Source of the DNA: Clostridiales bacterium
GTDB lineage: Bacteria; Bacillota; Clostridia; Lachnospirales; Lachnospiraceae
NCBI GenBank assembly: GCA_012522735.1
Contig: JAAYJU010000106.1
Coordinates: 34,095-98,094 of the forward strand
DNA length: 64,000 nt
Direction of reading: 5' to 3'
Shown: positions 14,487 through 32,840 of the stretch, one piece after another
Layout: each line of letters begins with the position of its first letter
Numbering within the stretch: position 1 is the first letter of the stretch
Position numbers and translations under genes: made by a program
Notes under the pieces: model-generated
The model's input: the letters and a program-made list of their open reading frames with translations, nothing else
Databases searched by the model: none
What the model was told of the DNA's origin: nothing

Positions 14487-14975
14487 TTATTCTTCCTTTA
14501 GAATCTGTCCACTTTCATTTATTATTTTCCTATGAAACAGATTTGACAATAGCATCAAAAATGAACCTACAATTATAAATATATCCGCAAGATTAAACAC
14601 TATATGCTTTATAGATTTTATATTAAAACTAAAATAATCTACAACCTTTCCTCTCTCAAAACGATCCTTCAGATTACTTGCTCCGCCTCCTATACATAAG
14701 GCTAAGCCTAGTTTCTGCAGTCTCATTCTCTTAGAAGGAAGGATTAATATAAATGCAAGGGTAACGATTGCAAATACTATAGCTGATACCTTCTTGACAA
14801 TTTCAGTTTTGTCGTCCAAGACATTGAGGCAAAACCCACTATTGTACTCTCTTTTTACGGTGATTTTACCCTTTAGAATATCCTTCTTTTCTCCAATACG
14901 GATCTTTTGCTCGATATAATTCTTCATATTACTGTCTAACAGAAATACTGCTAGCGCTATTAGGATATACACCAT
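14487..14975 (-). CDS. lspA: Lipoprotein signal peptidase II
   Basis: Hydrophobic 162 aa; N.G motif (EYNSG), GGGASNLKDR..GKVVDY, FNLADIFI. Confidence 0.8.
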   Translation of the reverse strand: MVYILIALAVFLLDSNMKNYIEQKIRIGEKKDILKGKITVKREYNSGFCLNVLDDKTEIVKKVSAIVFAIVTLAFILILPSKRMRLQKLGLALCIGGGASNLKDRFERGKVVDYFSFNIKSIKHIVFNLADIFIIVGSFLMLLSNLFHRKIINESGQILKEE

Positions 14976-15011
14976 ATAGATTCCTCCTTTAAACTGAAAG
15001 ACCTTTAGATC

Positions 15012-15920: not shown

Positions 15921-15945
15921 CGATGGTCACCTCATTTATCCCATA

Positions 15946-17868: not shown

Positions 17869-18006
17869 CTCTTAAACCTCCAATTCACAAACCTGTTATG
17901 TACCACAAATCAGTTTATAAATGATACAATGATTAACTGTTGCAAATTATTCAAAATTTCACTATTATCATATTTATCGGTCTTTATATGATTATTCTGA
18001 ACCACT

Positions 18007-18867
18007 CTAGCTAATATCATCGAATTCTAGATATGAACAAGGTATATGTGTCTTTCGCTCTTCAATAGGCGGTAATTTCATATAATTACGGTAAATTGAT
18101 CTTAAATACCAGTCATAATTACTGAAGCCAAAGAACAAATGGCCCTCAAACTCATATTCAGATAAATTTTTAAATATTTTTTTTGGAAACCCATAGGGAT
18201 AATCCTTAGGATGAGGAGAACACATGTGAGATATAAGCTCATGTTTCCTTTTATTATTATAATTTGCAATTAATAATTGTGTTTTCATTACGAGGTTTCT
18301 AGGTATCTTTGATAATATAGAATACCACATTCTCATTAATCGATTTGGGTGTACTCTTTTACCAGCTTCTGACCATAGTGTTTTTTGGATGCAATAACTA
18401 GTAAATAAATGTATCCTTCTTAATAATATATTGTCAGGGACCCCATCCATAATAAAGATATCCAAAAACACACCATCTTGAGCTGGTATGTGCTCATATC
18501 CTGCACGAACATATCTTGTGCCTTTTAATAATAATCTAGAATACCCCCATCTGTAATAAGGATCTGTCGTGTAATCCTGAAGGAAAAACCTTTTATGATC
18601 TAGTCCCCCCTTGCTCTTACAAACCATATAAAATCGCTCGTAATCTCTACGTAGTATTACAACATCTGCATCTGTATCCCATGGAATAAAGCCCTTGTGC
18701 CTGACAGCACCCAGTAATGTACCGCCGTCTATTGCATAAGGTATATTATATGCTCTGCAAATACGATCAAATTCCACAAGACAATCTAATATATTGCTTT
18801 GTAATCCTTTGACCTGTTCGTCAGTTAGCTCTATTATACTTATATTACTACGCATTTGATACTTCAT
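18007..18867 (-). CDS. LicD family phosphotransferase (paralogue 1)
   Basis: GGTLLGAVRHKGFIPWDTDAD signature, C-terminal YLRSIYRNYMKLPP.E.R. Confidence 0.9.
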   Translation of the reverse strand: MKYQMRSNISIIELTDEQVKGLQSNILDCLVEFDRICRAYNIPYAIDGGTLLGAVRHKGFIPWDTDADVVILRRDYERFYMVCKSKGGLDHKRFFLQDYTTDPYYRWGYSRLLLKGTRYVRAGYEHIPAQDGVFLDIFIMDGVPDNILLRRIHLFTSYCIQKTLWSEAGKRVHPNRLMRMWYSILSKIPRNLVMKTQLLIANYNNKRKHELISHMCSPHPKDYPYGFPKKIFKNLSEYEFEGHLFFGFSNYDWYLRSIYRNYMKLPPIEERKTHIPCSYLEFDDIS

Positions 18868-18869
18868 TC

Positions 18870-19937
18870 CTATTTACCTTCTAGATTGCATCTCATACTC
18901 TCTATAGTATTTTGTAGCATTTGCTCAAGACCTACCTCAGGTACAAAGCCTAAGCTTAATAATTTGTCAATGCTTAAGACAGCCCTCATTTCTGGATTAT
19001 AGCCTAATTCTTTACTATCGTGATTAATTTCAATTTTTACACCAATTCTGCCCATTGCCATTTTAGTTGCTATTAGCTTGGCCATATCATATATTGATAT
19101 TTCTGTATCAGGATTTGCCACATTATATGCCTCGCCATCTTCTCCTCTAAATAATATAAGAAATAAAGCTTTTGCACAATCTCTGATATAAAGATAATTT
19201 CTTACTGTCCTTCCCTCTGTGTGTAATATTATATCTCTTTCTTCAATTACACATCGTGCAAACTCTGCAAAGACTCGTTTATCATCATAAGCCACACCAG
19301 GTCCAAATGTTTGAGTCAATCTCGCTATTTTTATTGGTAGATTATATTCATATGCATATGAAAAGCATAGATTTTCAGCCATTCTTTTCCCTTCAGAATA
19401 GCTACTCCTTGGAGATGTTATATCTATATACCCATAGTCATTCTCATGTATATATGGTTTATCATCTCGGTGTCTCCCATATATCTCTAATGATGATAAA
19501 TATAAGAATCCATATAATTTTTGTTTTGATGCAAATTGGAGTATATTATTGGTACCTGATACAAGAGAAAGAATAGTTTCAACCGGGTGCTTTATAAAAT
19601 CGCCAGATTGGGTTGTATTAGCCCCATGAATAATATAATCAATATTAGTATCTATCTTAATCTCATCTCTAACATCTCCATATATGAAGTTTAGTTGCTT
19701 CATATCGACATAATCAGCATACATCCTCTCTGCTTTTTCCTTATTACGACAAAGAGCATATACTTTAATGTTATTACGGTTTTCTCTTTCATACTCAAGC
19801 AATACTTTAGTCAAAAAACTTCCAATTAAACCGGTTGATCCAGTTATAAGGAAGGTTCTATTCATTATCTGTGGAAAGCTTTTTAAATAAGCCTTCATAT
19901 TACTTATGTCATTTTCTAAATAGTTTACATTATTCAT
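18870..19937 (-). CDS. NAD-dependent epimerase/dehydratase (extended SDR), probable CDP-ketose reductase
   Basis: FLITGSTGLIGS, YLSSLEIYG, YSEGKRMAE (YxxxK), RLTQTFGPG. Confidence 0.75.
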   Translation of the reverse strand: MNNVNYLENDISNMKAYLKSFPQIMNRTFLITGSTGLIGSFLTKVLLEYERENRNNIKVYALCRNKEKAERMYADYVDMKQLNFIYGDVRDEIKIDTNIDYIIHGANTTQSGDFIKHPVETILSLVSGTNNILQFASKQKLYGFLYLSSLEIYGRHRDDKPYIHENDYGYIDITSPRSSYSEGKRMAENLCFSYAYEYNLPIKIARLTQTFGPGVAYDDKRVFAEFARCVIEERDIILHTEGRTVRNYLYIRDCAKALFLILFRGEDGEAYNVANPDTEISIYDMAKLIATKMAMGRIGVKIEINHDSKELGYNPEMRAVLSIDKLLSLGFVPEVGLEQMLQNTIESMRCNLEGK

Positions 19938-19938
19938 T

Positions 19939-20439
19939 CTAATTCTCCTGTTCTAACCCAACAGAATTAATAGCTTCTGTAATATTTAAAACATTTCCTA
20001 TTTTTTTCTTCAGCTCTTTAGTTACAGAGTCTATATTACCGAAGATTGATATCAGAATCACATCTGCACTAGGCAAATTGTCTTTTAATTTATATACTGG
20101 TAATGAATGATACAAATTATCTGCATTATTATCAATAAAATAAATCACCTCAACATTACTATCTTTAAGAGCATCATAAATAAGATAACCAATCTCTCCC
20201 ATTCCATAGATGGCAATACGATGATAGCCCGATCTCTCCAAATGGTTTGCTAGCGAATATCCAAGCTTATGTATAGCCACCCATTCAAGCATGAAATCAT
20301 ACTTACTTTTATTGAGTTCTATACTCTTATCCTTTTTGTGCTCCTGAACTTTAAGATACCGATTTTTTTTTTGTAAATCAATCACAAAATATGCTTGAAT
20401 AATAATTATTATTATAGTAGTTATAAAAAGATATATCAT
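19939..20439 (-). CDS. Membrane-anchored small Rossmann-like domain protein
   Basis: N-terminal TM helix, coiled linker, then RIAIYGMGEIG..YFIDNN. ATG at 20439 chosen from RBS spacing. Confidence 0.55.
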   Translation of the reverse strand: MIYLFITTIIIIIIQAYFVIDLQKKNRYLKVQEHKKDKSIELNKSKYDFMLEWVAIHKLGYSLANHLERSGYHRIAIYGMGEIGYLIYDALKDSNVEVIYFIDNNADNLYHSLPVYKLKDNLPSADVILISIFGNIDSVTKELKKKIGNVLNITEAINSVGLEQEN

Positions 20440-20456
20440 AGTTATCCCCAACCCTC

Positions 20457-22469
20457 TCAAATTCCAAAATACTCATTATTAGTGAATCCTAATAGTTCTA
20501 ATGCTTGACTAATCTCTTTATAATATTTTGATGAGCTAATTGCAATCTTGGAAAATTCCTGTCTTCTTTCCTTTAGTTGCTCGGGACTCATGACATCCTT
20601 ACCACGATACATAGTACCCCATTTGTTAATATCTGAATCACAGTAGCATAAAACATTACCCTGCTCAGCTTCAATTAGTTCCGTCATAAGCTCTGCATTA
20701 TTTCCCGCCCCATAAACTACATAATTATTACCTGGAATCACAATACCCTTTAAATTCTGTACAGCTTTTCTTAAGGTCGAGTAAAAATCCATTAAAATCT
20801 TAGCATCCATTGCTTTGTCAGTAAACACCTCCATAAATATGGGCTTGTCAGACGCCTCAAATAATAGTGGCATCTGCCTATCAAACTCTTCTTTATTCTT
20901 TACAGAAAGATATCTTATGTTTAAGGATTTGACCCATCCTTTAGCTTTGGTGAAGTGTTCAGCAGCAATAAAATTATCCTTAGTCTCAATAATCCGTGCT
21001 GGATTCCAGTAAAAGGTCTCTCCACCTGCATTGTTGCATAATATAATCCTTACATTGGATCCAACATAGCGATTCCATAAACCATTCATATCATAGAAAA
21101 AGCTCAGGTCACCAATAATCAGAAAAGCAAGTCGATCTTTATCTGCTACTGCCTGTCCTATAAAACTGGATAAACCCCCATCAATTCCTGTTGTACCGCG
21201 GTTCGAATAAACAGTAGTAATAGGATTAATAGAATAGCTCTGTGAAAATCTTACGATTGAATCAATGCCTAGATGAAGAATTGTATTACCTGGTATTTTC
21301 TTCATCATTTGTTGAATTATATAATTATTACTAAAAGGTAGCTCCTGATTAATCAAATGCTCTATTGAAGCTATCTTTGCCTTTATTAAATTATAATACC
21401 CTGCATTTTCTTTAGAATCCTCTGACCTACTATCAAATACATTCTCATTAAAAAATTCAAAGAATTCTCGATTATCTCCCTCAATAACATGTGTCAGCTT
21501 CTGTAAATGATCTATAATTCTGCCTTCCTCATTGACACACCAGTGCTCCATATATCCTGAATAATTTTTTAGGCGCAAACGGAGCTTGGACATATATTGT
21601 CCATTCATTGATATAACGATATCCGGCGCAATCTGTGTAAACTGACTATCTGAAATAACCTCAGACAAAAGGTAGAGGTTGATAGCTTTACTACAATGAA
21701 CATTGGCAATGTTCTCCACTGAAACAACACAATTATATTTCTTGCAGAATTCTTCAATTAATTGTCTCTCTTTGTCATCTACATTATGATTTTGTCCATA
21801 AATAAGTAGAACTCTCTTTTTATAAAGGTGTTTCTGTAATTGTTCTTGCATTGTTCTGTCTAACTTATGTAATACTAATTGTTCTATCTTTTTTACTTCG
21901 GGTAAAGTATCAGCATTAAAGGAAATAAACGGATGCTTTCCAGCACTATCTACAGGAATATTAATATGTACGGGACCTCTACCATTATGATTTAATTCCA
22001 TAAGTGCCTCGTTAATTATTCTCTCACAGTACCAAGCATCACGTGAGTCCTGTACAATAGGAAGTGTCACTTCTTTTTTGCATACTTGATTAAATATACT
22101 ACTTTGGGGTATTTGTTGTTCCTCAAGCTGGAATAACGTATAAGGAGTTTTGTCTGCTGTTATTACAACCAAGGGTATACTCTGATAACAAGCCTCATTT
22201 ACAGCTGCCGAATAATTAACAGATGCTGTACCCGAAGTACAGCATATGCCCACATAGCAATCATGACTTTCCTGTGCCAAGCCCATAGCAAAAAAACCTG
22301 CGCTACGTTCATCGACAATAGAGTAGCATTCGAAGAAATCATCTCTCTCTAAGGAATGAACTATTGGTGAATTTCTTGCTCCTGGAGATAAAACCATTTT
22401 CTTAACTTTATATTTTTTTAGTAGTGCGATTAATATCTGTACATTTTCAATTTCAGAATACATAATCAT
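20457..22469 (-). CDS. MenD-like thiamine-diphosphate enzyme with an appended C-terminal Rossmann-like domain
   Basis: VLSPGARNSP, VDERSAGFFAMGLA, CCTSGTA, NRGTTGIDG, IGDLSFFYDMN, plus an extra ~90 aa tail starting YVVYGAGNN. No other men genes in the window. Confidence 0.8.
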   Translation of the reverse strand: MIMYSEIENVQILIALLKKYKVKKMVLSPGARNSPIVHSLERDDFFECYSIVDERSAGFFAMGLAQESHDCYVGICCTSGTASVNYSAAVNEACYQSIPLVVITADKTPYTLFQLEEQQIPQSSIFNQVCKKEVTLPIVQDSRDAWYCERIINEALMELNHNGRGPVHINIPVDSAGKHPFISFNADTLPEVKKIEQLVLHKLDRTMQEQLQKHLYKKRVLLIYGQNHNVDDKERQLIEEFCKKYNCVVSVENIANVHCSKAINLYLLSEVISDSQFTQIAPDIVISMNGQYMSKLRLRLKNYSGYMEHWCVNEEGRIIDHLQKLTHVIEGDNREFFEFFNENVFDSRSEDSKENAGYYNLIKAKIASIEHLINQELPFSNNYIIQQMMKKIPGNTILHLGIDSIVRFSQSYSINPITTVYSNRGTTGIDGGLSSFIGQAVADKDRLAFLIIGDLSFFYDMNGLWNRYVGSNVRIILCNNAGGETFYWNPARIIETKDNFIAAEHFTKAKGWVKSLNIRYLSVKNKEEFDRQMPLLFEASDKPIFMEVFTDKAMDAKILMDFYSTLRKAVQNLKGIVIPGNNYVVYGAGNNAELMTELIEAEQGNVLCYCDSDINKWGTMYRGKDVMSPEQLKERRQEFSKIAISSSKYYKEISQALELLGFTNNEYFGI

Positions 22470-23890
22470 TCCTCCTGATATTCAATAATCTCACTTACAT
22501 CGTAGTCCATGCATAGATAGGACTCCATATTGAGAAGTACCTTTTTCTTTGATTTTTCTCTGGCTTGATTATATACAGATGTATAATTATTTCGACTTAA
22601 CACAATAATAAAATCAACCTCTTGCCAACAGTCCTCATAATTACATATCTTTTGCTCGTTCTCTACTAAATCACCCCAGAGCAAAGGATCTCTATCAATA
22701 ATATGATCTAACTCTAATTGGTTTTCTGCTAATACTGGATATAGTGCTCTAAGATACTTCCCAGCTCCCCACACAGCTACTTTGTATTGATTCTCTTTAA
22801 TATAATCAAATAACCTTTTTATTCTATCAATACAGAATTTATACTTCAATTTCATATATTTTTGAATATAATCTCTCCCTTTATGTGACATTATAAAATC
22901 TTCTCTTTCTCCACGCCACGATGATATATCTTGTGCATTATAAACAATCTGATTTAAGATATCTATATAAAAGAAATTAGCACTCCTTCCTATGTACTGA
23001 AGATTATCAGGATCTGCTCCCAAAGCAATAAAATGATTATTTACATTTATTATGGTTTTTATCGGAAGATCATCTACATAGTTTAGATAATAACTCATGA
23101 TTCTAATCCAATATTTTAACATCCAATGGTTACATTCCTGAGGATATTTATCAAAGTAATCATTATTTTTTAAAAAATCTGCCAAACTAAAAACAGACTG
23201 TGTTAAATTGTTGATTTTATTACAATCTATATTATGTAAGGTTGAATCCTCATTAATGTTGTTATAGTAATAAAAGGCTTCCCTAACATATTCTATTCTA
23301 TAAGCCTCTAGATACCATCTTAATACAATAGCTGTATCTTCAAAAAAAATGTTTTCTGGAAAGAATAGTTGATGCTCTGTTATAAAATCCTTTCTTATAA
23401 TATTGCTCCAGCAATATGCCTTGTACATTAGAATAATGCCACGTGTCTTCGTGTCATCTATAACTCCAGTAAGCTTATGTTCATAGGCAGCAAGATATTT
23501 ATGGGCATTAGTATTCACATCTATCATATAATAATCGCACATAACGATATCAGCGCTAGTATGTTCTGCCTTTTCATATAGCCTTCTACATGTGTCTAAA
23601 TCAATATAATCATCACTATCTACAAATTTGATGTATTTACCTCTAGCTTTTCGTATACCAACATTTCTGGCTCCCCCCTGACGCATATTTTTGTCCAAAA
23701 ATATTCCTATTACCTTGTCAGGATATTTCGATACATATTCTCTAATTATTAAATGAGAATTATCAGGGGATTTGTCATCTACGACGATGATTTCTATTTC
23801 CTGTAGCGTCTGATTAACACAGGAGTCTAAGCATTGACGTAGTGTTTTTTCTACATTATATACAGGGATTATTATGCTGACTTTTATCAT
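22466..23890 (-). CDS. Glycosyltransferase family 2 with C-terminal Rossmann-like tail
   Basis: VSIIIPVYNVEK, VDDKSPD, GGARNVG, FVDSDDY, FFEDT; tail KVAVWGAGK. Confidence 0.88.
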   Translation of the reverse strand: MIKVSIIIPVYNVEKTLRQCLDSCVNQTLQEIEIIVVDDKSPDNSHLIIREYVSKYPDKVIGIFLDKNMRQGGARNVGIRKARGKYIKFVDSDDYIDLDTCRRLYEKAEHTSADIVMCDYYMIDVNTNAHKYLAAYEHKLTGVIDDTKTRGIILMYKAYCWSNIIRKDFITEHQLFFPENIFFEDTAIVLRWYLEAYRIEYVREAFYYYNNINEDSTLHNIDCNKINNLTQSVFSLADFLKNNDYFDKYPQECNHWMLKYWIRIMSYYLNYVDDLPIKTIINVNNHFIALGADPDNLQYIGRSANFFYIDILNQIVYNAQDISSWRGEREDFIMSHKGRDYIQKYMKLKYKFCIDRIKRLFDYIKENQYKVAVWGAGKYLRALYPVLAENQLELDHIIDRDPLLWGDLVENEQKICNYEDCWQEVDFIIVLSRNNYTSVYNQAREKSKKKVLLNMESYLCMDYDVSEIIEYQEE

Positions 23891-25368
23891 GTAATTGAAC
23901 CTCCGGCTAATTTAGGAGCTAACACTTGCTCCATATTTATGTTATATTTGTTGAGATTTAGTATTATATCCTCAAACGAATTACTTGCTATTACTATATA
24001 GTTAAATAATTTCTCATTATACTTTAAATCCTGAACTGAAAAGACTGGTTTTCCCTGGCATAGGGTACCTGCTTTCTCCATATCTGAATCACAGTATCCA
24101 ATAACAACTCCCTCTCTTTGCAGTATATAGTTTGTAACCTTTAATCCATTCTTTCCAGTTCCATATACTATATATTTTCCATCTCTTTTAACATCAAAAT
24201 CATCAGAAAATCTATCAGAGCGAAAATTATAGGATATCTCTTCAAGATACCTTCGAATCGGAAGATATTGCGGACATGCCTTCTCACATTTTCCGCATTT
24301 TATACAGTCAGATGCATGACCTGAGTTTGTTATTATAGTATTATATAAAGAAATATGTCGTCCCTTATGTATCCTATCTGTATCAACTTTTTTTTGCATA
24401 GAATTATATATATGAAACAACTCAGGAATTCTTATATTCTTCGGGCACTCCTTCACACAATACAAGCAAGCAGTACATTGTATTTTATAATATGAGTTAA
24501 TCATATCCACAATTTGACTTATTAGCTCTTGCTCTTCCTGCGATAAAGGCTTGAATTCAGTCATAATATTGACATTATCCTGTAATTGAGCAATATTTGA
24601 CATGCCGCTTAATACCATTTCTACCCCTGGTAACGATGCTACATAACGAAGTGCTAAAGAGACCGGAGACTCTTTCCTATCCAAGGATTTAATTTTTTCT
24701 TCAACATTATTAGGAACATTAGCTAAAGCTCCACCCTTAATCGGCTCCATAACAAATATAGTCTTATTATGCTTACGGGCTATCTCATAGCATTTTCTTG
24801 ATTGAATGTGTGGACTTTCCCAATCTAGGTAATTAAGCTGTAGCTGTACAAAATCGACATCAGGATACTTTATCAAAACCTGGTCTAAAAGATCAGCATT
24901 ATCATGAAATGAAAAACCTATACTTTTGGCATATCCTCTGCCCTTTAAGCTGCTGACAAATTCAAATAATTCATGGCTTACCATATCATCATAAACTGTA
25001 CCATTTACATTATGGATATAATATATATCAAAATAATCAACCCCACACCTTATTAGCTGCTCCATAAAGAATTGTTCATAACCACCCTTTTTTATTGCAA
25101 TATGATGAGTCATTTTATCGGCTAATATATATTGATTCCTTTGATACCTTGTGGTTAAACACTCATGAATAGCTATTTCAGACATCCCGTTATGGTATGG
25201 ATATGCTGTCTCAAAGTAATTAAATCCATTCTCAATAAATAGGTCGGTCATTCTTGATACTTCATCATAATTAATATCCTTTATACTTGAACCATGTAGC
25301 GGCAATCTCATAAAGCCAAAGCCTAACTTCTTCTTAAAAAAATTGCTTAAATTATTCATTTGCTCCAC
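23887..25368 (-). CDS. Aldo/keto reductase with 4Fe-4S dicluster and Rossmann-like tail
   Basis: LGFGFMRLP, YFETAYPYH, VMEPIKGG, VLSGMS, CTACLYC..CP and CIKCGKCEKACP; tail YIVYGTGKNG. Confidence 0.88.
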   Translation of the reverse strand: MEQMNNLSNFFKKKLGFGFMRLPLHGSSIKDINYDEVSRMTDLFIENGFNYFETAYPYHNGMSEIAIHECLTTRYQRNQYILADKMTHHIAIKKGGYEQFFMEQLIRCGVDYFDIYYIHNVNGTVYDDMVSHELFEFVSSLKGRGYAKSIGFSFHDNADLLDQVLIKYPDVDFVQLQLNYLDWESPHIQSRKCYEIARKHNKTIFVMEPIKGGALANVPNNVEEKIKSLDRKESPVSLALRYVASLPGVEMVLSGMSNIAQLQDNVNIMTEFKPLSQEEQELISQIVDMINSYYKIQCTACLYCVKECPKNIRIPELFHIYNSMQKKVDTDRIHKGRHISLYNTIITNSGHASDCIKCGKCEKACPQYLPIRRYLEEISYNFRSDRFSDDFDVKRDGKYIVYGTGKNGLKVTNYILQREGVVIGYCDSDMEKAGTLCQGKPVFSVQDLKYNEKLFNYIVIASNSFEDIILNLNKYNINMEQVLAPKLAGGSIT

Positions 25369-25371
25369 CTT

Positions 25372-26469
25372 TTAATATGTTTCCATAACCTGGTCAATAG
25401 ATTTCTTAAGAATGCTAATAGAATGATTACGTTTTTTCTCTATTAATGGTCTAACACTAGTATAATCAACCTGATAATCGCTTATCTTATCACAATCACC
25501 TATTGTAATCATCCTATCCTCTAATCCTGTTTCTACCAATATAGTCTTAATTCTGCTTATATTTTTATTACTGATTACTGAATAAAAAGGAATACCCAGA
25601 TTAATTGAAAAGGCAGTACCATGAAAGGAGGTGGTAATAACTAAGGAAGCATGCTGTATATATGCAACAAAATCCAAGGGACCGGCATCATGAATATATT
25701 CCAGATTACACTCTTTATAAATATCCTTTAGGGAAATAACCTTTAATGCAAGATGAAACTTTTTAGCCATCATTTTGGCAATTGATAACCCTCCCTCGAC
25801 ATATCCTACTTCATAATATAATAGATATGGCTTGTGTGTACATTCATTATTACTACACCACTCATCCTTAGATATTAAAAAGGTTGGATCCTCTACTTGG
25901 CCTATATCCATACCCAGAAGACTTCCAACCATCTCTGCTCCCGACTTTTCTCTCATAAATATGTAATCATATTGCTTCATAAAGTCTATATAGGGCATTA
26001 ATTTGCTCCTGTTACTAGATCCCATACTTGGCGCATAAGCAATACGATGCTTTATTTGCGGATAAGGCATAAAATAAAAGTCTGAATACCAACCATTTCC
26101 TCTAAAATCAAGATTCCAAATTTGATCACTTCCTGTTATCACAATATCATAAGACTTGATCTCCTCACTATTCTCAAACTCCTTAGAGGTGAGAAAAGCA
26201 TGCTTGCTTAAGTTTAGTTCGTTCTCAATAAACTCTTGAAATTTCTGATATCGAATTATATTATAATTGGCCGTTTTCTTATAAATTTGGTTCTGAATTT
26301 TTGTCGGATCATAAGCATCTCTGTGTTTTTGAGTAGCAAAATCAATAATCTCGCATTCATACCCAAGCTTTTTAATCGTTTTTTGAAGAGCATAGGCTTG
26401 TAGTACGGCACCATAATTAACAGGTCTATGAAAGGTTGCTATGCCAATTTTTATATTGCCTTTGTCCAT
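25372..26469 (-). CDS. Polysaccharide pyruvyl transferase family protein (WcaK/CsaB-like)
   Basis: NYGAVLQAYAL, ITGSDQIWN, YAPSMG, MRE..G, DPTFL, VITTSFHGTAFSI. Confidence 0.85.
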   Translation of the reverse strand: MDKGNIKIGIATFHRPVNYGAVLQAYALQKTIKKLGYECEIIDFATQKHRDAYDPTKIQNQIYKKTANYNIIRYQKFQEFIENELNLSKHAFLTSKEFENSEEIKSYDIVITGSDQIWNLDFRGNGWYSDFYFMPYPQIKHRIAYAPSMGSSNRSKLMPYIDFMKQYDYIFMREKSGAEMVGSLLGMDIGQVEDPTFLISKDEWCSNNECTHKPYLLYYEVGYVEGGLSIAKMMAKKFHLALKVISLKDIYKECNLEYIHDAGPLDFVAYIQHASLVITTSFHGTAFSINLGIPFYSVISNKNISRIKTILVETGLEDRMITIGDCDKISDYQVDYTSVRPLIEKKRNHSISILKKSIDQVMETY

Positions 26470-26510
26470 AATACTTGTCCTTCCCCTTTATTTTTGTGGC
26501 TTATGAATGG

Positions 26511-27803
26511 CTATCTATATATCTCAAATTCAGTTTTATTATTGACTAATATATAGGGGATTCCTTTTTCAGCTAGTAGCTTTGCTGCAAAAATATGTGC
26601 TGCCTCGGGAATTACAAATACAATTAAATTATTATCAGTATCCTCTAACTCATCCGAATGAATAATTTTTTTATCCTCATAATATGAGCCGTAAATATTC
26701 TGATCTATAAAAAACTGCATAGACCAGTTTGGAAACTTCTGTTTAATAAAGTGATAAAAGTTAATTGTATCCGAGCGAATTCCCCATAATGCATAGGATA
26801 TTTGTGAATTATGAAAAGGTAGATTGCTTATTGCATCTGATAATCCCTTATTATATTCTGCTCTGTTACGATTTTCCCAATAAGTACTTATATCCAAAAA
26901 CTGTGCATTATCATTGTATGCTTTTTTTATCTGATTGCTAAACACGGATATCATCTGTTCTTTTTCATTTTCATATTCTATAGGCGAAGGATTCCAATCA
27001 ATATCTTTAAAATTAGTAGGCGTATATAAGGGCACGAACTTATCAATCCAGGAAAAACGAGTATCAAAATTATCGCCAGCTAGTATTACAGGAATGCCCA
27101 TTGCAATACAGGGAACAGCTGCATGTAACCTAGAAGTAATTACCAGTGAAGCATCTTCCTTATACATTAAGAGTTGCTGATATGCTTTCGCATTATATAC
27201 CGATATTTCATCATCCGAAAGAAAGAACGAATCTGTAAGTCTTTCCATTACAGGCAAATGTGTTGTTATTTCAATCCTGTTCTTTAGCACAGATGGTATA
27301 TAATCCAATATACTCCTTGGAGCATCGACCACATAGATCTTGCTCCCCTTAATAAACTTATCCCTTCTGGGTAAAGTTGCAGTCATACAACCTGATATAA
27401 AAGCTCTAATTCCGATTTTTCTAAGGTTAATCATTGTTTGTTCATCTCTACACCCAATTGGCTGGTAACTGCGTAGCTGATCAAGAATACTCTCATCAAA
27501 ATCCTCTGTAAACAAATGGAAGCTAGTAAAGACAGGAATAATTTTATCAGATACTGGGAGTGTATTGAATTGATTCTGGTACTGATCATGAATAGCATTA
27601 TAACAGCTCATAGGTAAAATCACATATTCTCCATCGTATGACTTAAGCTGATAATAATCGATATGTATAATTTGCTCATCATCAATCCCCATTCTCTTAT
27701 ATAGATTATAAAGAGCATAGGATTGAATTGGATCTCCAAGATTACACCACTTTTTACTATCTTTGCGTACGGATTTTCTGTATTGTAGTATACCATACTT
27801 CAT
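26511..27803 (-). CDS. Second polysaccharide pyruvyl transferase family protein with C-terminal extension
   Basis: NLGDPIQS, PIGCRD..T, SGCMTATLP, VITSRLHAAVPCIAMGIPV. Confidence 0.75.
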   Translation of the reverse strand: MKYGILQYRKSVRKDSKKWCNLGDPIQSYALYNLYKRMGIDDEQIIHIDYYQLKSYDGEYVILPMSCYNAIHDQYQNQFNTLPVSDKIIPVFTSFHLFTEDFDESILDQLRSYQPIGCRDEQTMINLRKIGIRAFISGCMTATLPRRDKFIKGSKIYVVDAPRSILDYIPSVLKNRIEITTHLPVMERLTDSFFLSDDEISVYNAKAYQQLLMYKEDASLVITSRLHAAVPCIAMGIPVILAGDNFDTRFSWIDKFVPLYTPTNFKDIDWNPSPIEYENEKEQMISVFSNQIKKAYNDNAQFLDISTYWENRNRAEYNKGLSDAISNLPFHNSQISYALWGIRSDTINFYHFIKQKFPNWSMQFFIDQNIYGSYYEDKKIIHSDELEDTDNNLIVFVIPEAAHIFAAKLLAEKGIPYILVNNKTEFEIYR

Positions 27804-27815
27804 TTCGCTTGCCTC

Positions 27816-28754
27816 CTAAACCTTCACCTTTTTTAGAAGCTCTTTATAATCATCTATCTCAGGCTTAACTAGTTTTAGTGCAGAACATGGTATATGACTA
27901 ATACGTTGCTCCACCGGAGGTAGCTTCATATAATCTCCAAAGGTTCGTTTAAGTGCTTCATCATAATTGTGAACCGCCATAAATCTTCTTCCTTCGAAAA
28001 GCAATCTTATATATCCATGGTCCCAATTCAATTGTCCAATCTTCACTTTATAATAATCTTCTTTTGTTATACTGCGTGGATATCCCCATTTGCTTTCACT
28101 GTATGACGAAACCTTATGTGCCATATTTCTGCATAAATTTGTCCTGCTCTTTCCACTCCATTCAATAACCCAGTCTCTAAAATGAAAAACCATGTTTCTC
28201 GGAATAAAGCTCAAGGCCCTAAATAAAGCTCGCATAAAAGAATTAGGGTGTAGCTCTTTTCCAACAACAGACCATAAAACTTTGCGAATAAGAAAACAGG
28301 AAAAGCTATGAATTGGTCTTAATAAAGGATTATCTGGAACACTGTCAGCACATATTATGTCTACAAAAACACCATTTTTTGATTTTATCATTTCATGGCC
28401 TGCACGAACGAAGACAGTGTCTTTACGTAGAATACGAGCATAATTCCAACGATAATCCTTATCAGTTCTCCATTCCTGAAGAAAGAAGCGTTTCTTATCA
28501 AGCTCTGTTTTACATACTTCATAAAAACGATTATAATCCTCTCTATCCATAGATATATCCATGTCGGGATCCCAAGGAATAAAGCCCTTATGCCTTACTG
28601 CTCCTAGTAGGCTTCCGCCAGCCAAGCGATAAGGTATATGCTTCATGGTACATATCCTATCAATTTCAATTACCATTTCCAGCTGGATCAACTGTATACA
28701 TCTTCGCTCCTTAGCTGTTATAATTATTTCTCTATTTATTCTTTCTGCTTTCAA
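27816..28754 (-). CDS. LicD family phosphotransferase (paralogue 2)
   Basis: GGSLLGAVRHKGFIPWDPDMD; colinear similarity to 18007-18867. Confidence 0.9.
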   Translation of the reverse strand: MKAERINREIIITAKERRCIQLIQLEMVIEIDRICTMKHIPYRLAGGSLLGAVRHKGFIPWDPDMDISMDREDYNRFYEVCKTELDKKRFFLQEWRTDKDYRWNYARILRKDTVFVRAGHEMIKSKNGVFVDIICADSVPDNPLLRPIHSFSCFLIRKVLWSVVGKELHPNSFMRALFRALSFIPRNMVFHFRDWVIEWSGKSRTNLCRNMAHKVSSYSESKWGYPRSITKEDYYKVKIGQLNWDHGYIRLLFEGRRFMAVHNYDEALKRTFGDYMKLPPVEQRISHIPCSALKLVKPEIDDYKELLKKVKV

Positions 28755-28789
28755 GATTTACTCCCGTTTTAATTAATGATATATAATAG

Positions 28790-29515
28790 TCATATCCCAT
28801 AAATCTGAGAACCTTCTTTGGCTTCATAAATTGCCTTAAAAATGTAATAATCATAAGCTGTTGTTATCTTGATATTTTCTTCAAGGCACTCTACTGTATG
28901 TAGTTCATACCCATAGGACTGCATCAGCTCTACTGAATCAATAATACGCTCTTTCCCATCCGCTAAAGCTCTATTATGAACCTCCCAAATATCCTTAACA
29001 AAAAAACTCTGAGGAGCTCGTGCTATAGATAGAGTGTTTCTTTTGTATACTTCACTAATAGTATTGTTATCTTCATCGGTACGTATAATGCTCTCTTTGG
29101 CAGGAACAACCGTGATACCTGATCCATACTTTCTAACAGACCTAATATTATCAGAAATAAGCTTTTCCGAAACAAATGGGCGAACTCCATCATGTATCAG
29201 CACAATATCTTCTTCTGATTTCGATTGATTATGTACTACTTTGATTCCATTATATATTGAACCCTGACCAGTATTTGCTCCTGGAATTACTGAACTTACT
29301 TTTGTAATATTAAAACGTCTAATTTGTTCCCATAATGTATTTATCCAATCATCAATGCACACAACAACAATATTATCGATTTCTTCATGGTATTCAAAAT
29401 TCTCTATTGTATAGATTAGTATTGATTTACCATGTAGCTCTAAGAATTGCTTTGGCTTAGTCTTACTATTCATTCTTTGCCCTGTTCCACCCGCAAATAT
29501 CATGGCAGTAACCAT
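28790..29515 (-). CDS. IspD/TarI family cytidylyltransferase
   Basis: IFAGGTGQRM..PKQFL, LIHDGVRP, APQSF, ENIKITT..D. Confidence 0.9.
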   Translation of the reverse strand: MVTAMIFAGGTGQRMNSKTKPKQFLELHGKSILIYTIENFEYHEEIDNIVVVCIDDWINTLWEQIRRFNITKVSSVIPGANTGQGSIYNGIKVVHNQSKSEEDIVLIHDGVRPFVSEKLISDNIRSVRKYGSGITVVPAKESIIRTDEDNNTISEVYKRNTLSIARAPQSFFVKDIWEVHNRALADGKERIIDSVELMQSYGYELHTVECLEENIKITTAYDYYIFKAIYEAKEGSQIYGI

Positions 29516-30991
29516 TTAGCCATCCTCCTTCATTAACGCTTCTATAACTCGCTTTCCAGCATTTCCATCTATATTCAACACATTGCCTTTCAAACTCTCT
29601 ATTCGTTGCTGTTTCTCATAGTCCTCATCATTTAAGATCATATCGCAGAAATTTTTCATAGTAAAACCATCAAAACGATAGTATGCGATACTCTCATCGA
29701 ATGTAGGAATGCATTTGCGAAAATACTCTCTTTTTCCCCTGATAAACAAAACAGGCTTTCCCGTAATCATGTATTGTCTGGTCCACGAACTCATATCAGA
29801 TATCATTCCATCAGATGCTACAGTTGCGATTTTATTATCAGCAAACTCATCAATAATCGCACCCTTTGATTTAATGCTCTCGATATTACTTTTGTATTGC
29901 ACCATCCATTCACTACGCATCCTCTTAATAGTTGATTCGAATAGTGGGTGAGGTCGCCAGATCAAAGTAATACCCTCTTGTGATGCTAAAAAATTAAGAG
30001 TCTTTGTTAGAAAGTCCATATAAGTTTTAAATTTTAGCATATGTCCGATACTTGTATTTATAATGATAACCTTATTATTTCCTATCTTTTCCTTCCACTC
30101 CTTAGGTATTTCTATTCCTTTATAATCCAAATTAACATAAGCATCAAATTTCGGCGAACCACTAAGTATTAGCTTGTCAGCATTAATTCCAATTTTAATG
30201 TAAAGATCATATTGCTCTTTAGATTGTGTTACTATCTTATCTACCAAAAGTAAGCTTGGGACTAAGATTTTATTATTGAAGGCTTCTGCATCCAAATACA
30301 TACCAGATATAAAATACGGACTATAGATAACCATCTCTGATACTTCCTTAAGATTTTTAACATAGTAATCAGGATCAATTGTAGTAACATTATTGAATTG
30401 ATCGTATGGATTGTGTATAAATGTAAAATCCGGATGGAGCTGTCTTAAATCTATCTGCTCCCACGATGTAATTGGTACATAATCAGGAAAATCCATACCA
30501 TCATAATGCATATTCCCTATTGATCCATCTGGATTTTTATCATAATAAGGAATAGGCATCACATAACATTCACAACCTTCGTAATCCTTTGCAGCATTCC
30601 AGATACTCTCTAAACTGTCCCACATACTTGCTTGATAGGGTAGAAATAGACATACTACCTTTTCTGGTATTTCATTCTTTATCTGAGAGTATATCTGTAT
30701 AATAAATCTAGACAATTTCTTATTAATCTTTAACTTCTCTTGCCTATTTTCTTCCTGAGAACACAGCCATACCAGCTCACAATATGTCTCTAATTTCTTA
30801 ACAATCGGATGGTTTTCTCCTTCCGATTGCTCTACCTCGTTACCTATTTGGATTGCACTTTCCTGCATTACTTGTAGCATATCATATAATTGCTGTGCAT
30901 TATATATATCAATTACCTTGTCAATGGTCTTATGAGCATTTTCCATGGTCTTTATTATGCTTAGTATTTGTTGTTTGATATATCTCCTCAT
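29516..30991 (-). CDS. CDP-glycerol glycerophosphotransferase (TagF)-like protein with helical N-terminal domain
   Basis: FLPYQASMWDSLESI, FIHNPYD, GSPKFD, IWRPHPL, MISDMSS. Confidence 0.6.
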   Translation of the reverse strand: MRRYIKQQILSIIKTMENAHKTIDKVIDIYNAQQLYDMLQVMQESAIQIGNEVEQSEGENHPIVKKLETYCELVWLCSQEENRQEKLKINKKLSRFIIQIYSQIKNEIPEKVVCLFLPYQASMWDSLESIWNAAKDYEGCECYVMPIPYYDKNPDGSIGNMHYDGMDFPDYVPITSWEQIDLRQLHPDFTFIHNPYDQFNNVTTIDPDYYVKNLKEVSEMVIYSPYFISGMYLDAEAFNNKILVPSLLLVDKIVTQSKEQYDLYIKIGINADKLILSGSPKFDAYVNLDYKGIEIPKEWKEKIGNNKVIIINTSIGHMLKFKTYMDFLTKTLNFLASQEGITLIWRPHPLFESTIKRMRSEWMVQYKSNIESIKSKGAIIDEFADNKIATVASDGMISDMSSWTRQYMITGKPVLFIRGKREYFRKCIPTFDESIAYYRFDGFTMKNFCDMILNDEDYEKQQRIESLKGNVLNIDGNAGKRVIEALMKEDG

Positions 30992-31033
30992 TCAGACCTC
31001 CCAATAAAAACTGTTGTCGTGGTTAATAATAAA

Positions 31034-32092
31034 TTAAGTATTGTCTCTCAGCCTCACCAATGCTGGCTCATAATCTCCACACTTATTATAATAAGTCTTC
31101 GCTTTATCCACTAATCCGAGGCATTCATATATCACTCCAATATTATAGTATGCCCTGTAGCTATTTACACCGTCCATCTTATGGAACTTCATCTTGGTAG
31201 CCTTGATAAATTCATCAATGGCCTCTGTAAACTTTGCATTGTTCATATATATTAGACCCATCAGATATACAAAATCAGCACTTATGGCAAATTCATCGTA
31301 TACACCTAGTAGCTGCATAGATTTCTCATACTGTTTAGAGTTAATAAGTGCATAACCGTAGCTCTCTACCATATCCTGAACATACTCTAGCCTAATATCC
31401 AGATCAAAATATAAGGCCTTGTCAAACCAACTACAGGCGGCTTCATAATCCTCCTGCATATAAAAAGATTTACCTAATTGATAAAGTATATAAGGGTCAT
31501 CCCCATCATCCTCAAGCTGCTGTAAAAGAATTGTAATATTTCTGTTTGTCTTTTTTTTTCTTGTCTCTAAGTCTCCATCATAACCTCTATGATCAACCTC
31601 CACCGGTATATCATAATAATAGCTTTCCAAATCTTTGATTGGACCAGGCTGTTCATGTATTTTCCCTTTATATTCATATAAATCCTTAGAGAATAGCCTA
31701 CCTACCCGGTTATTGATTCGGAAGGTTTCTCCGTCCCTTATAAAGCTATTCTTCTGAACAAGTCTACCAACACCATCCGGGTTTTCTCTGATAAGTCTCT
31801 CCAGCTCATCCTTATCAAAATAATCAGCTACTTCGTCGCTATCTATTACAAGTACATACTTATTAGTTGCCTTACTAACACTATAATTTCTAGCTGCAGA
31901 AAAATCCTGTCTCCAGATATAATCATAGACCTTATCGGTATATTTCTTGGCAATCTGCTTTGTATTATCAGTTGAACCAGTATCTACTACTATTACTTCA
32001 TAGCCTAATGGTAGTAATGGTTCTAGACATTGTCCCAATTGTTCTTCTGAATTCTTTACAATCATACATATTGAAATCATTATACTACCCAT
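31034..32092 (-). CDS. GT2 glycosyltransferase with TPR repeats (candidate flagellin O-glycosyltransferase)
   Basis: ISICMIVKN, VDTGSTD, DFSAARN, IDSDE, IHEQP, then TPR-like YQLGKSFY, YLMGLIYM and YNIGVIYE. Confidence 0.85.
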   Translation of the reverse strand: MGSIMISICMIVKNSEEQLGQCLEPLLPLGYEVIVVDTGSTDNTKQIAKKYTDKVYDYIWRQDFSAARNYSVSKATNKYVLVIDSDEVADYFDKDELERLIRENPDGVGRLVQKNSFIRDGETFRINNRVGRLFSKDLYEYKGKIHEQPGPIKDLESYYYDIPVEVDHRGYDGDLETRKKKTNRNITILLQQLEDDGDDPYILYQLGKSFYMQEDYEAACSWFDKALYFDLDIRLEYVQDMVESYGYALINSKQYEKSMQLLGVYDEFAISADFVYLMGLIYMNNAKFTEAIDEFIKATKMKFHKMDGVNSYRAYYNIGVIYECLGLVDKAKTYYNKCGDYEPALVRLRDNT

Positions 32093-32135
32093 ATCTTTCT
32101 TTACTCTAACGTGCTTTACGCCAATAGTGCTACAG

Positions 32136-32816: not shown

Positions 32817-32840
32817 ACTATTACCTCATAATTATGAAAT

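What the first reader, a model, noticed from the sequence alone, without database searches (positions are those of the whole stretch)
20457..27803. MenD-like ThDP enzyme + Fe-S aldo/keto reductase + two pyruvyltransferase-family proteins: an undefined glycan-tailoring module
Seen: a MenD-family protein with no menF/H/C/E/B nearby, flanked by a GT2, an AKR with two CxxCxxC clusters and two different pyruvyltransferase-family proteins. The MenD-like sequence keeps PGARN and NRG but has ADKT where MenD usually has ADRP. Established: MenD adds a 2-oxoglutarate-derived unit by ThDP carboligation, and other ThDP enzymes (YerE) build branched-chain sugars from NDP-keto-sugars. Inference: a carboligation-reduction-transfer route yielding a branched sugar or a non-pyruvate acyl/ketal substituent, which would be a new activity for both families.
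Basis: partly seen in the sequence, partly recalled or inferred. Interest (0 to 1): 0.68.

Follow-up and report, generated by a model that had tools for sequence, protein, structure and literature searches.

The report
MenD-like enzyme in sugar-decorating cassette
A gene that databases would label as the vitamin-K2 enzyme MenD instead belongs, with a pyruvyl transferase and an iron-sulfur reductase, to a recurring three-enzyme set in sugar-coat gene clusters (here the cluster that decorates the flagellum), and it probably builds an unusual acidic side group by forming a carbon-carbon bond.

Summary
Window 20457-27803 (minus strand) holds five tightly packed genes: a MenD-like ThDP enzyme, a GT2, an aldo/keto reductase with two 4Fe-4S motifs, and two PF04230 pyruvyl-transferase proteins. 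They lie in a flagellin glycosylation island of a Herbinix-like Lachnospiraceae genome.

It is not menaquinone MenD. The genome has no menB, menA or bona fide menF, and none of 40 relatives has any MenD homologue. The protein falls in a separate clade (support 99) from men-operon MenDs.

In that clade a PF04230 gene lies within 6 kb in 27 of 30 loci, against 0 of 47 men-operon loci. A reductase (SDR or Fe-S AKR) lies nearby in 23 of 30. Natural fusions exist: AKR-Fer4-MenD-like (the nearest homologues, 52% identity) and pyruvyltransferase-MenD-like.

The ThDP catalytic residues and the 2-oxoglutarate-binding arginines are kept. The isochorismate-side pocket is remodelled.

Best model, inferred and untested: the transferase puts an enolpyruvyl ether on a sugar, the MenD-like enzyme adds the 2-oxoglutarate-derived C4 unit to it, and the AKR reduces the ketone. 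The unreduced acid is known as an ether in megapolipeptin, whose gene cluster has the same enzyme pair.

The branched-sugar route is less likely.

The parts
20457..22469 (-). MenD-like ThDP carboligase (core residues 1-565) with a C-terminal ~100-aa mini-Rossmann tail
   Evidence: TIGR00173 256 bits (cut-off 244), PF02776/PF02775. Listeria MenD 3lq1 E 6e-42. Falls in the glycan clade, SH-aLRT 99. Residues E54, Q118, R32, R407 and R424 are kept. R107 (E. coli numbering) is Lys, and the intermediate-II pocket reads T/F/N instead of I/F/L.
22466..23890 (-). Family-2 glycosyltransferase with the same C-terminal tail
   Evidence: PF00535 E 7e-37. The tail is recovered by a leave-one-out HMM, E 1.8e-3, as the top hit in the genome. 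GT2 genes recur beside the cassette in 19 loci.
23887..25368 (-). Aldo/keto reductase + 2x[4Fe-4S] ferredoxin domain + tail; the reductase partner
   Evidence: PF00248 E 5e-42 and Fer4_9. Catalytic positions read E/Y/K/H against 1ynp. It is fused to MenD-like in P0002-P0005 and P0092 and adjacent in L086 and L087.
25372..26469 (-). PS_pyruv_trans protein PPT1, the conserved PEP-dependent transferase partner
   Evidence: PF04230 119.7 bits. It belongs to neighbour cluster c3, which sits next to MenD-like in 27 of 30 clade loci. The family is fused to MenD-like in L044, L059 and L061.
26511..27803 (-). Second, divergent PS_pyruv_trans protein PPT2, with a possible tail
   Evidence: PF04230 52.4 bits over residues 21-240. 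It shares only a 28-residue stretch with PPT1. Its tail was not recovered by the leave-one-out HMM.
19939..20460 (-). 173-aa protein: N-terminal hydrophobic helix plus the tail domain alone
   Evidence: Sequence. PglD_N-like hit, E 8e-4. Leave-one-out HMM E 2.4e-4. Overlaps the MenD-like gene by 4 nt.
23890..24198 (-). Tail domain of the AKR (representative of the shared mini-Rossmann module)
   Evidence: 42% identical to the MenD-like tail at 20460-20774, E 8e-17. AF2 model pLDDT 90.8. Best PDB folds: 3nkl, Rex, VioB N-terminal domain. Precomputed Pfam label on the window's own proteins (P0001, P0121) and their homologues: PF22674 C2185-like_N.
14487..37214 (-). Surrounding flagellin glycosylation island, from the flagellin gene to the lspA boundary
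   Evidence: Flagellin 36396-37214, with FliD, FliS, FlaG, FliW and FlgK upstream of it. The island holds Maf 34135-35973, NeuB, a CMP-sugar synthetase, GT2-TPR, a TagF-like protein, a TarI-like protein and two LicD. GC is 0.31-0.36, against 0.39-0.41 in the housekeeping flank.

Best explanation
The MenD-like gene is the C-C bond-forming core of a three-enzyme glycan side-group cassette. The cassette consists of a PF04230 'pyruvyl' transferase, a MenD-derived ThDP enzyme and a ketoreductase. Here it is embedded in a flagellin glycosylation island.

Proposed steps; all three are inferred and none was tested:
1. PPT1 uses PEP to place an enolpyruvyl ether on a sugar hydroxyl. The acceptor could be a nucleotide sugar or the growing glycan.
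2. The MenD-like enzyme decarboxylates 2-oxoglutarate on ThDP, as MenD does. It adds the resulting succinic-semialdehyde carbanion to the CH2= carbon of the enolpyruvyl group. That group is an alpha,beta-unsaturated carboxylate, the same type of acceptor as in isochorismate, so this is a Stetter-type 1,4-addition. The product is a 2-O-linked 4-oxoheptanedioate, +172.04 Da on the sugar.
3. The Fe-S AKR reduces the 4-oxo group, giving +174.05 Da.

In most other loci a classical SDR takes the AKR's place. In about half of the clade the distal-carboxylate arginine is replaced, which suggests a smaller donor such as pyruvate there.

Shown here: this is not menaquinone MenD; the clade is separate; the cassette is conserved; fusions to both partners exist; the ThDP and donor-site residues are retained; the acceptor-side residues are changed.
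For: No pathway for a true MenD:
- The genome has one menD hit only, no menB, no menA, and isochorismate synthase only below its cut-off.
- 0 of 40 genus- or order-level relatives have any MenD homologue.

Separate clade:
- In the tree, 31 glycan-context proteins, 4 fusion proteins and L044 form one clade with support 99. It is separate from 47 men-operon MenDs and spans five phyla.

Conserved context:
- PF04230 lies within 6 kb in 27 of 30 clade loci against 0 of 47 men-operon loci (Fisher p 9e-18).
- A reductase lies within 6 kb in 23 of 30 against 2 of 47.
- The usual gene order is PPT, MenD-like, SDR. In L086 and L087 it is PPT, AKR-FeS, MenD-like.

Fusions:
- AKR-Fer4-MenD-like occurs in P0002-P0005 (52% identity, the nearest homologues) and in P0092, which sits in a different subclade.
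- PF04230-MenD-like occurs in L044, L059 and L061.

Residues (roles taken from PMC12312563 and PMC9835592):
- Catalytic Glu, Gln118, Ile418 and the Mg-binding Asp are invariant.
- The donor-site Arg395 and Arg413 equivalents (R407, R424) are kept in the window protein.
- The intermediate-II contacts are changed: Arg107 to Lys, and Ile/Phe/Leu to Thr/Phe/Asn.

Chemical precedent:
- Megapolipeptin A carries 2-hydroxy-4-oxoheptanedioic acid linked through C2 to an alcohol (HMBC correlation Adhda-19 to Hoha-2; I read this as an ether, while PMC13291983 calls the attachment an esterification). Its gene cluster encodes a putative pyruvyl transferase MgpK and a ThDP enzyme MgpL, annotated SEPHCHC synthase, proposed to build that group (PMC11411415, PMC13291983).
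- A related transferase, DxpH, uses PEP in vitro (PMC12964715).
- 2,4-Dihydroxypentanoic acid 2-ethers exist in the Providencia alcalifaciens O31 O-antigen (PMC10609480). That is the product this scheme predicts with a pyruvate donor plus reduction.
Against: - No enzyme of the glycan clade has been assayed. The acceptor, the donor and the order of steps are inferred.
- PF04230 enzymes are known as ketal-forming transferases. A released enolpyruvyl ether product has not been shown for this family.
- In this window a GT2 separates the AKR from the MenD-like gene, and there are two different PF04230 genes, so I cannot say which transferase is the partner.
- The donor-site serine (E. coli Ser391) aligns as Ser or Asp depending on the aligner.
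- The Lys292 equivalent is also alignment-dependent.
- AKRs normally need no Fe-S clusters, so the role of the ferredoxin domain is unexplained.
- The loci counted are not phylogenetically independent.
Confidence: 0.5

Rival explanations
1. Same cassette, other order, as the megapolipeptin authors propose. The ThDP enzyme first adds the 2-oxoglutarate-derived unit to free PEP, giving 1,5-dicarboxy-3-oxopentyl phosphate (2-phospho-4-oxoheptanedioate). The PF04230 enzyme then transfers that C7 unit to the sugar hydroxyl, and the reductase acts before or after transfer.
For: This is the route proposed for MgpK/MgpL in PMC11411415. PEP is itself an enolpyruvyl compound and so a possible Stetter acceptor. 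The context and fusion evidence fits this order equally well.
Against: PF04230 chemistry, shown for DxpH with PEP (PMC12964715), relies on the enol phosphate. A saturated 2-phospho acid would need a different, substitution-type transfer. In most loci the gene order is PPT, MenD-like, reductase.
Confidence: 0.15
2. YerE-like route. The ThDP enzyme performs a 1,2-carboligation on an NDP-4-keto-sugar or a sugar aldehyde, and the AKR reduces the new ketone to give a branched or chain-extended sugar. The pyruvyl transferases act independently.
For: An SDR epimerase/dehydratase-family gene lies two genes downstream at 18870-19937. The tail domain resembles nucleotide-sugar enzyme modules such as 3nkl and the VioB N-terminal domain. 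That MenD can accept aldehydes in vitro is from my own knowledge and was not checked here.
Against: The protein is MenD-derived. Acetolactate-synthase/YerE-type models score at most 59 bits against cut-offs above 500. Dehydratase-family genes accompany the clade in only 9 loci, while PF04230 does so in 27 of 30 and is sometimes fused.
Confidence: 0.12
3. Decarboxylase-only role. The enzyme turns 2-oxoglutarate or another 2-oxoacid into an aldehyde, and the AKR reduces that to a hydroxy acid such as 4-hydroxybutyrate. The hydroxy acid is then attached to the glycan, or CDP-activated and moved by the nearby TarI-like and LicD enzymes.
For: The donor-site residues are kept. TarI-like, LicD and TagF-like genes flank the module here and in L003. 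A reductase directly partners the ThDP enzyme.
Against: This gives no role to the PF04230 protein, which is nearly always present or fused. The cassette occurs without TarI or LicD in most loci. No kinase for activating the product is seen.
Confidence: 0.08
4. It is an ordinary MenD (SEPHCHC synthase) for menaquinone synthesis that happens to lie in the island.
For: It passes the TIGR00173 cut-off by 12 bits. Public sources annotate clade members as SEPHCHC synthase.
Against: The 92%-complete genome has no menB, no menA and no menF above its cut-off. No MenD homologue is found in 40 relatives. The protein falls in a separate clade. The acceptor pocket is changed. It carries an extra tail domain shared with its neighbours.
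Confidence: 0.02

Closest known systems
MenD, SEPHCHC synthase (EC 2.2.1.9; TIGR00173; PDB 3lq1/9e9b Listeria, 2x7j B. subtilis, 5ej4 E. coli), especially the Bacteroidota men-operon enzymes
   Same: Three-domain ThDP fold. Catalytic Glu, Gln118, Ile418 and the GDLSFFYD...NN Mg/diphosphate motif are present. The arginines that hold the distal carboxylate of 2-oxoglutarate are kept. The protein is 32-40% identical to Bacteroidota MenDs and sits next to them in the tree.
   Different: Separate clade. No men genes in the genome or its relatives. Intermediate-II (isochorismate-side) contacts are changed. There is an extra C-terminal domain. It is always partnered with, or fused to, a PF04230 transferase and a reductase, in glycan loci.
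MgpK/MgpL of the megapolipeptin gene cluster (Paraburkholderia megapolitana)
   Same: A 'polysaccharide pyruvyl transferase' is paired with a ThDP enzyme annotated SEPHCHC synthase. The product carries 2-hydroxy-4-oxoheptanedioic acid linked through C2 to an alcohol, which is the C3 + C4 skeleton my model predicts (PMC11411415, PMC13291983).
   Different: The acceptor there is a lipid hydroxyl in a PKS-NRPS product, not a sugar. No reductase is involved and the keto group stays. The biosynthesis is only proposed, not tested. The sequence relationship of MgpL to this clade was not tested here.
Ketal pyruvyltransferases of PF04230 (CsaB, WcaK, Pvg1, DxpH/ChtnH)
   Same: PPT1 and PPT2 match PF04230 above its cut-off. 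The family uses PEP as donor (PMC6801904, PMC12964715).
   Different: Neither matches the CsaB equivalog model. PPT1 has no sequence relative in the PDB. Here the transferase travels with a ThDP enzyme and a reductase, which plain ketal formation does not need.
YerE/YerF (branched-chain sugar yersiniose A) and PigD-type ThDP Stetter enzymes
   Same: The logic is similar: ThDP-dependent C-C bond formation followed by ketoreduction in a sugar pathway (YerE/YerF), or 1,4-addition to an unsaturated acceptor (PigD). Both comparisons rest on my own knowledge.
   Different: Those enzymes are acetolactate-synthase-type. This protein is MenD-type: ALS models score at most 59 bits. No consistent link to keto-sugar-forming dehydratases is seen.
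COG1453-type aldo/keto reductases with a C-terminal ferredoxin domain
   Same: The window's AKR is 48-52% identical to thousands of ~375-aa AKR + 2x[4Fe-4S] proteins of anaerobes.
   Different: Here it carries the extra tail. It is adjacent to MenD-like, and fused to it in other genomes. I know of no tested function for this family.

Membership tests
MenD / SEPHCHC synthase (TIGR00173, EC 2.2.1.9) | Score above the curated equivalog cut-off | tested here: met
   256.2 bits against a cut-off of 244.2, a margin of only 12 bits. 257.7 bits in the genome search.
MenD / SEPHCHC synthase (TIGR00173, EC 2.2.1.9) | ThDP catalytic residues and the 2-oxoglutarate distal-carboxylate arginines (E. coli Glu55, Gln118, Ile418, Arg395, Arg413) | tested here: met
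   E54, Q118, I429, R407 and R424 align to them. The Ser391 equivalent is ambiguous: Ser or Asp depending on the aligner.
MenD / SEPHCHC synthase (TIGR00173, EC 2.2.1.9) | Isochorismate / intermediate-II contact residues (Arg107; Ile, Phe and Leu of the PP domain) | tested here: not met
   Arg107 is Lys. Ile/Phe/Leu reads Thr/Phe/Asn. The 47 men-operon MenDs have R, I, F and L/I in 45-47 of 47.
MenD / SEPHCHC synthase (TIGR00173, EC 2.2.1.9) | Remaining menaquinone pathway (menF, menB, menA) present in the genome | tested here: not met
   menB 0 hits, menA 0 hits, isochorismate synthase 181.9 bits against a cut-off of 224.75, in a 92%-complete assembly. No MenD homologue in 40 relatives.
MenD / SEPHCHC synthase (TIGR00173, EC 2.2.1.9) | Groups with men-operon MenDs in a tree | tested here: not met
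   It lies in a 36-row clade, SH-aLRT 99, made only of glycan-context and fused proteins.
MenD / SEPHCHC synthase (TIGR00173, EC 2.2.1.9) | SEPHCHC synthase activity; complementation of a menD mutant | not testable with these tools
   Needs an enzyme assay or genetics.
Glycan-locus MenD-like clade (PF04230 + MenD-like + reductase cassette; undescribed) | Clade membership | tested here: met
   Nearest rows are the AKR-MenD-like fusions P0002, P0004 and P0005 (54% identity), within a starred clade of 35-36 rows.
Glycan-locus MenD-like clade (PF04230 + MenD-like + reductase cassette; undescribed) | PF04230 gene and a reductase in the same operon | tested here: met
   PPT1 lies 4.5 kb upstream and the AKR 3.2 kb upstream on the same strand, with overlapping or abutting genes.
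MgpK/MgpL-type pair (megapolipeptin 4-oxoheptanedioate ether) | Sequence relationship of the ThDP enzyme to MgpL | not tested
A homologue search seeded with the Ancylobacter clade member did not list it.
MgpK/MgpL-type pair (megapolipeptin 4-oxoheptanedioate ether) | Product is a 2-O-linked 4-oxo- or 4-hydroxy-heptanedioate | not testable with these tools
   Needs MS or NMR of the flagellin glycan, or in vitro reconstitution.
YerE-type ThDP flavoenzyme (branched-chain sugar synthesis) | Acetolactate-synthase-like sequence | tested here: not met
   The best ALS-family model scores 58.8 bits against a cut-off of 538. PDB acetolactate synthases score at most 42 bits, against 147 for MenD.
PF04230 polysaccharide pyruvyl transferase | Pfam score above the gathering cut-off | tested here: met
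   PPT1 119.7 bits and PPT2 52.4 bits, cut-off 25.3. The CsaB equivalog model is not met: 16 bits against 213.
Aldo/keto reductase (PF00248) | Catalytic tetrad Asp-Tyr-Lys-His | tested here: inconclusive
   Aligned to 1ynp, the positions read Glu (ETA for DTA), Tyr, Lys and His. Asp to Glu is conservative, but its effect is unknown.

The most novel reading that the evidence does not exclude
A MenD-derived 'glycan Stetterase' works in the cytoplasm on flagellin sugars. It forms a C-C bond between a 2-oxoglutarate-derived unit and a sugar-bound enolpyruvyl ether. A ferredoxin-type Fe-S aldo/keto reductase finishes the group as a C7 hydroxy-dicarboxylic acid ether. The enzymes are held together, or aimed at a common nucleotide-linked substrate, by a shared mini-Rossmann tail that also exists alone on a membrane anchor. 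This would be the first ThDP-dependent C-C bond-forming decoration of a protein-linked glycan.
Probability: 0.3. Interest if true: 0.85.

Novelty: new variant of a known kind. Interest (0 to 1): 0.68.

Why it matters
- Annotation: thousands of proteins in gut, rumen and digester bacteria are annotated as the menaquinone enzyme MenD but sit in glycan loci. Treating them as MenD mispredicts vitamin K2 synthesis in metabolic models of anaerobes.
- Chemistry: if the model holds, glycan tailoring gains ThDP-dependent C-C bond formation on an enolpyruvyl ether. That would explain the origin of known but biosynthetically unassigned acid ethers such as the 2,4-dihydroxypentanoic acid ethers of Providencia O-antigens. 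It would also predict new C7 diacid ethers.
- Link between fields: it ties glycan tailoring to the untested MgpK/MgpL proposal for megapolipeptins.
- Testability: the fused forms (AKR-MenD-like, PPT-MenD-like) are ready-made constructs for biochemistry.

Tried and rejected
- Housekeeping MenD: rejected, because the pathway is absent from the genome and its relatives.
- Donor choice following the reductase type (Arg413 with AKR, Ile413 with SDR): not so. Arg-type enzymes also pair with SDRs.
- More copies of the tail domain in the genome: none beyond the five in this operon. The PPT2 tail is not recovered by the leave-one-out HMM.
- Local Pfam on the tails gave only weak PglD_N, CoA_binding and Methyltransf_14 hits. 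PF22674 did not appear.
- PPT1 against PDB sequences: no hit.
- Literature on biosynthesis of 2,4-dihydroxypentanoic acid ethers, on the Providencia O31 gene cluster, and on ThDP enzymes beside pyruvyl transferases in capsule loci: nothing relevant in the library. A Butyrivibrio carboxyethyl-sugar search returned only unrelated papers.
- Attempt to reach MgpL with a proteobacterial clade member as query: not listed.
- My c3-based transferase HMM misses the divergent PF04230 genes of L086 and L087, which Pfam does call. The 27 of 30 count is therefore a lower bound.

Full report
**What is there**

All genes of the window run on the minus strand. The five ORFs of the finding are confirmed:
- 26511-27803: a divergent PF04230 protein, PPT2 (52 bits).
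- 25372-26469: a PF04230 protein, PPT1 (120 bits).
- 23887-25368: an aldo/keto reductase followed by two CxxCxxCxxxCP motifs.
- 22466-23890: a GT2.
- 20457-22469: a 670-aa ThDP enzyme. It scores 256 bits on the menD equivalog model (cut-off 244). Its best solved relative is Listeria MenD (E 6e-42).

The quoted motifs (SPGARN, ADKT, NRG) are present. Neighbouring genes overlap by 4 nt or lie 1-41 nt apart, so this is one operon.

**Context**

Upstream in transcription lie flagellar late genes and a 272-aa flagellin. After the flagellin come a Maf glycosyltransferase, NeuB, a CMP-sugar synthetase, GT2-TPR, a TagF-like protein, a TarI-like cytidylyltransferase and LicD. Downstream of the module are a 173-aa membrane protein, an SDR, a second LicD and two further proteins. 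Housekeeping genes follow: lspA, ftsH, uvrC, hprK, murB and dnaE.

The island has 0.31-0.36 GC, against 0.39-0.41 in the housekeeping flank. HprK and UvrC fall in 90%-identity clusters with Herbinix proteins. The organism is therefore a Herbinix-like Lachnospiraceae.

**Not menaquinone MenD**

- The 92%-complete assembly has a single menD hit, no menB and no menA. Its only chorismate-utilising hit is below the isochorismate synthase cut-off.
- None of 24 same-genus and 16 same-order genomes has any MenD homologue at E 1e-20.

The gene is therefore an accessory gene of the island.

**A separate, widespread clade with fixed partners**

The nearest homologues (52% identity) are 1046-aa fusions of AKR, Fer4, MenD-like and tail. 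Behind them come hundreds of 555-595-aa proteins at 43-51% identity, many annotated as SEPHCHC synthase.

I fetched 80 genome loci and clustered their neighbours. Two groups appear:
- Men-operon group: Bacteroidota and Akkermansia loci at 32-40% identity, with the order thioesterase, MenF, MenD, MenB, MenC/E, MenA.
- Glycan group: loci at 40-54% identity from Bacillota, Coriobacteriia, Bacteroidota, Omnitrophota and Spirochaetota. They carry PF04230 just upstream and an adh_short SDR just downstream, among GT2, GT4 and Wzx genes. A locus from Ancylobacter (Alphaproteobacteria) shows the same arrangement.

In a maximum-likelihood tree the glycan group and the fusions form one clade with support 99.

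With family HMMs, PF04230 lies within 6 kb in 27 of 30 clade loci against 0 of 47 men-operon loci. A reductase does so in 23 of 30 against 2 of 47. These loci are not phylogenetically independent.

L086 and L087 show PF04230, AKR-FeS, MenD-like as three consecutive genes. L044, L059 and L061 encode 925-935-aa PF04230-MenD-like fusions. AKR fusions occur in two different subclades (P0002-P0005 and P0092). Fusion to each partner is the strongest evidence that the three enzymes act in one pathway.

**Active site**

Residue roles come from the Listeria and S. aureus MenD papers (PMC12312563, PMC9835592).
- Kept everywhere: the catalytic Glu, Gln118, Ile418 and the Mg-binding Asp.
- Kept in the window protein: both arginines that hold the distal carboxylate of the 2-oxoglutarate-derived intermediate (R407, R424). 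About half of the clade has Ile, Leu or Thr at the second one.
- Changed on the intermediate-II (isochorismate) side: Arg107 is Lys here. The PP-domain Ile/Phe/Leu, invariant or nearly so in 47 men-operon enzymes, reads Thr/Phe/Asn here and Glu/Phe/Asn in most of the clade.
- Uncertain: the Lys292 and Ser391 equivalents depend on the aligner.

So the donor chemistry looks like MenD's and the acceptor looks different.

**Mechanism (inferred)**

MenD's special reaction is a 1,4-addition of a ThDP-bound acyl anion to an alpha,beta-unsaturated carboxylate. An enolpyruvyl ether, the expected product or intermediate of a PEP-dependent PF04230 enzyme, is such an acceptor. The proposed steps are:
1. 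Addition of the 2-oxoglutarate-derived C4 unit gives a 2-O-linked 4-oxoheptanedioate.
2. The reductase then gives the 4-hydroxy acid.

The keto form of this acid, linked through C2 to an alcohol, is a proven part of megapolipeptin A (PMC11411415). I read the linkage as an ether. The megapolipeptin gene cluster encodes a putative pyruvyl transferase and a ThDP enzyme annotated SEPHCHC synthase. Its authors propose that these two enzymes build the group, but this has not been tested (PMC11411415, PMC13291983).

A related transferase uses PEP in vitro (PMC12964715). With a pyruvate donor the same scheme gives 2,4-dihydroxypentanoic acid 2-ethers. Those are known in a Providencia O-antigen (PMC10609480).

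I found no paper describing the cassette in glycan loci. A broad review of glycan pyruvylation mentions no ThDP enzyme or reductase partner.

**The AKR**

It keeps Tyr, Lys and His of the tetrad, with Glu for Asp. It belongs to a very large family of ~375-aa AKR-ferredoxin proteins of anaerobes. Why Fe-S clusters are needed is unexplained.

**The shared tail**

The MenD-like protein, the AKR, the GT2 and the 173-aa membrane protein end in a related ~100-aa domain. PPT2 perhaps does too.
- The MenD-like and AKR tails are 42% identical (E 8e-17).
- Leave-one-out HMMs recover four of the five tails as the top hit among 6624 genome ORFs, and nothing else in the genome matches.
- The AF2 model is confident (pLDDT 90.8). 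It resembles the small Rossmann module of WbpM/PglF-type enzymes (3nkl), Rex, and the N-terminal domain of VioB/PglD acetyltransferases, at E 3e-4 to 4e-3.
- Precomputed Pfam labels call it PF22674. Many genes of the related flagellar island L003 carry it.

It may bind a nucleotide or dock the enzymes together; neither was tested.

**Verdict**

The reading as an undefined glycan-tailoring module is supported. The specific branched-sugar idea is less likely than an extended acid-ether side group.

The chemistry remains a hypothesis:
- About 0.9 that this is a glycan cassette rather than MenD.
- About 0.5 for the enolpyruvyl Stetter route.

Earlier AI notes of this scan reach the same reading in other genomes. 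They are not independent evidence. One of them led me to the megapolipeptin papers, which I then read myself.

Noticed in passing
window 19942-20250, 20460-20774, 22469-22795, 23890-24198, 26514-26828: One ~100-aa mini-Rossmann tail is appended to four or five unrelated enzymes of the operon. It also stands alone on a membrane-anchored 173-aa protein. No other ORF in the genome has it. The related island L003 has it on eight or more genes (Pfam label PF22674).
   Followed up: partly
window 28790-29515, 27816-28754, 18007-18867, 29516-30991: A TarI-like ribitol-5-phosphate cytidylyltransferase (187 bits, cut-off 166), two LicD proteins and a TagF-like protein are present, but no TarJ-type reductase is seen in the island. 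The polyol or alcohol phosphate that gets CDP-activated is unknown. L003 has the same IspD-like gene at the start of its island.
   Followed up: no
L003:11353-13854 and L006:13323-15137: FrhB/FdhB-like Fe-S flavoprotein domains are fused to PF04230 in L003, and lie beside the cassette, fused to a hexapeptide acyltransferase, in L006. This hints at a redox step coupled to the pyruvyl transferase, possibly enolpyruvyl reduction to a lactyl ether.
   Followed up: no
L087:2555-3898: A class-II DAHP synthase (639 bits) sits directly upstream of PF04230, AKR-FeS, MenD-like in a metagenomic contig, next to ATP-grasp and GFO/IDH/MocA genes. In that locus the acceptor may be a PEP-derived keto-acid sugar or a cyclitol rather than a common hexose.
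   Followed up: no
window 32841-33731, 32136-32816, 33737-34114, 34135-35973: The nonulosonic-acid part of the island is minimal: a 296-aa NeuB, a cytidylyltransferase, a 125-aa HAD-like protein and Maf. No PseB/PseC- or LegB/LegC-type genes were seen, so the nine-carbon (or shorter) keto-acid sugar made here is unclear.
   Followed up: no
window 15946-17868 and 15012-15920: The island ends with a 640-aa protein that has only an SbsC-type S-layer C-terminal domain, and a 302-aa protein with a weak Maf N-terminal-like match. Their roles are unknown.
   Followed up: no
(P0009, P0020, P0271, P0280, P0293 and others): [quoted passage not shown] This looks like systematic over-annotation, because the clade scores just above the TIGR00173 cut-off.
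   Followed up: partly
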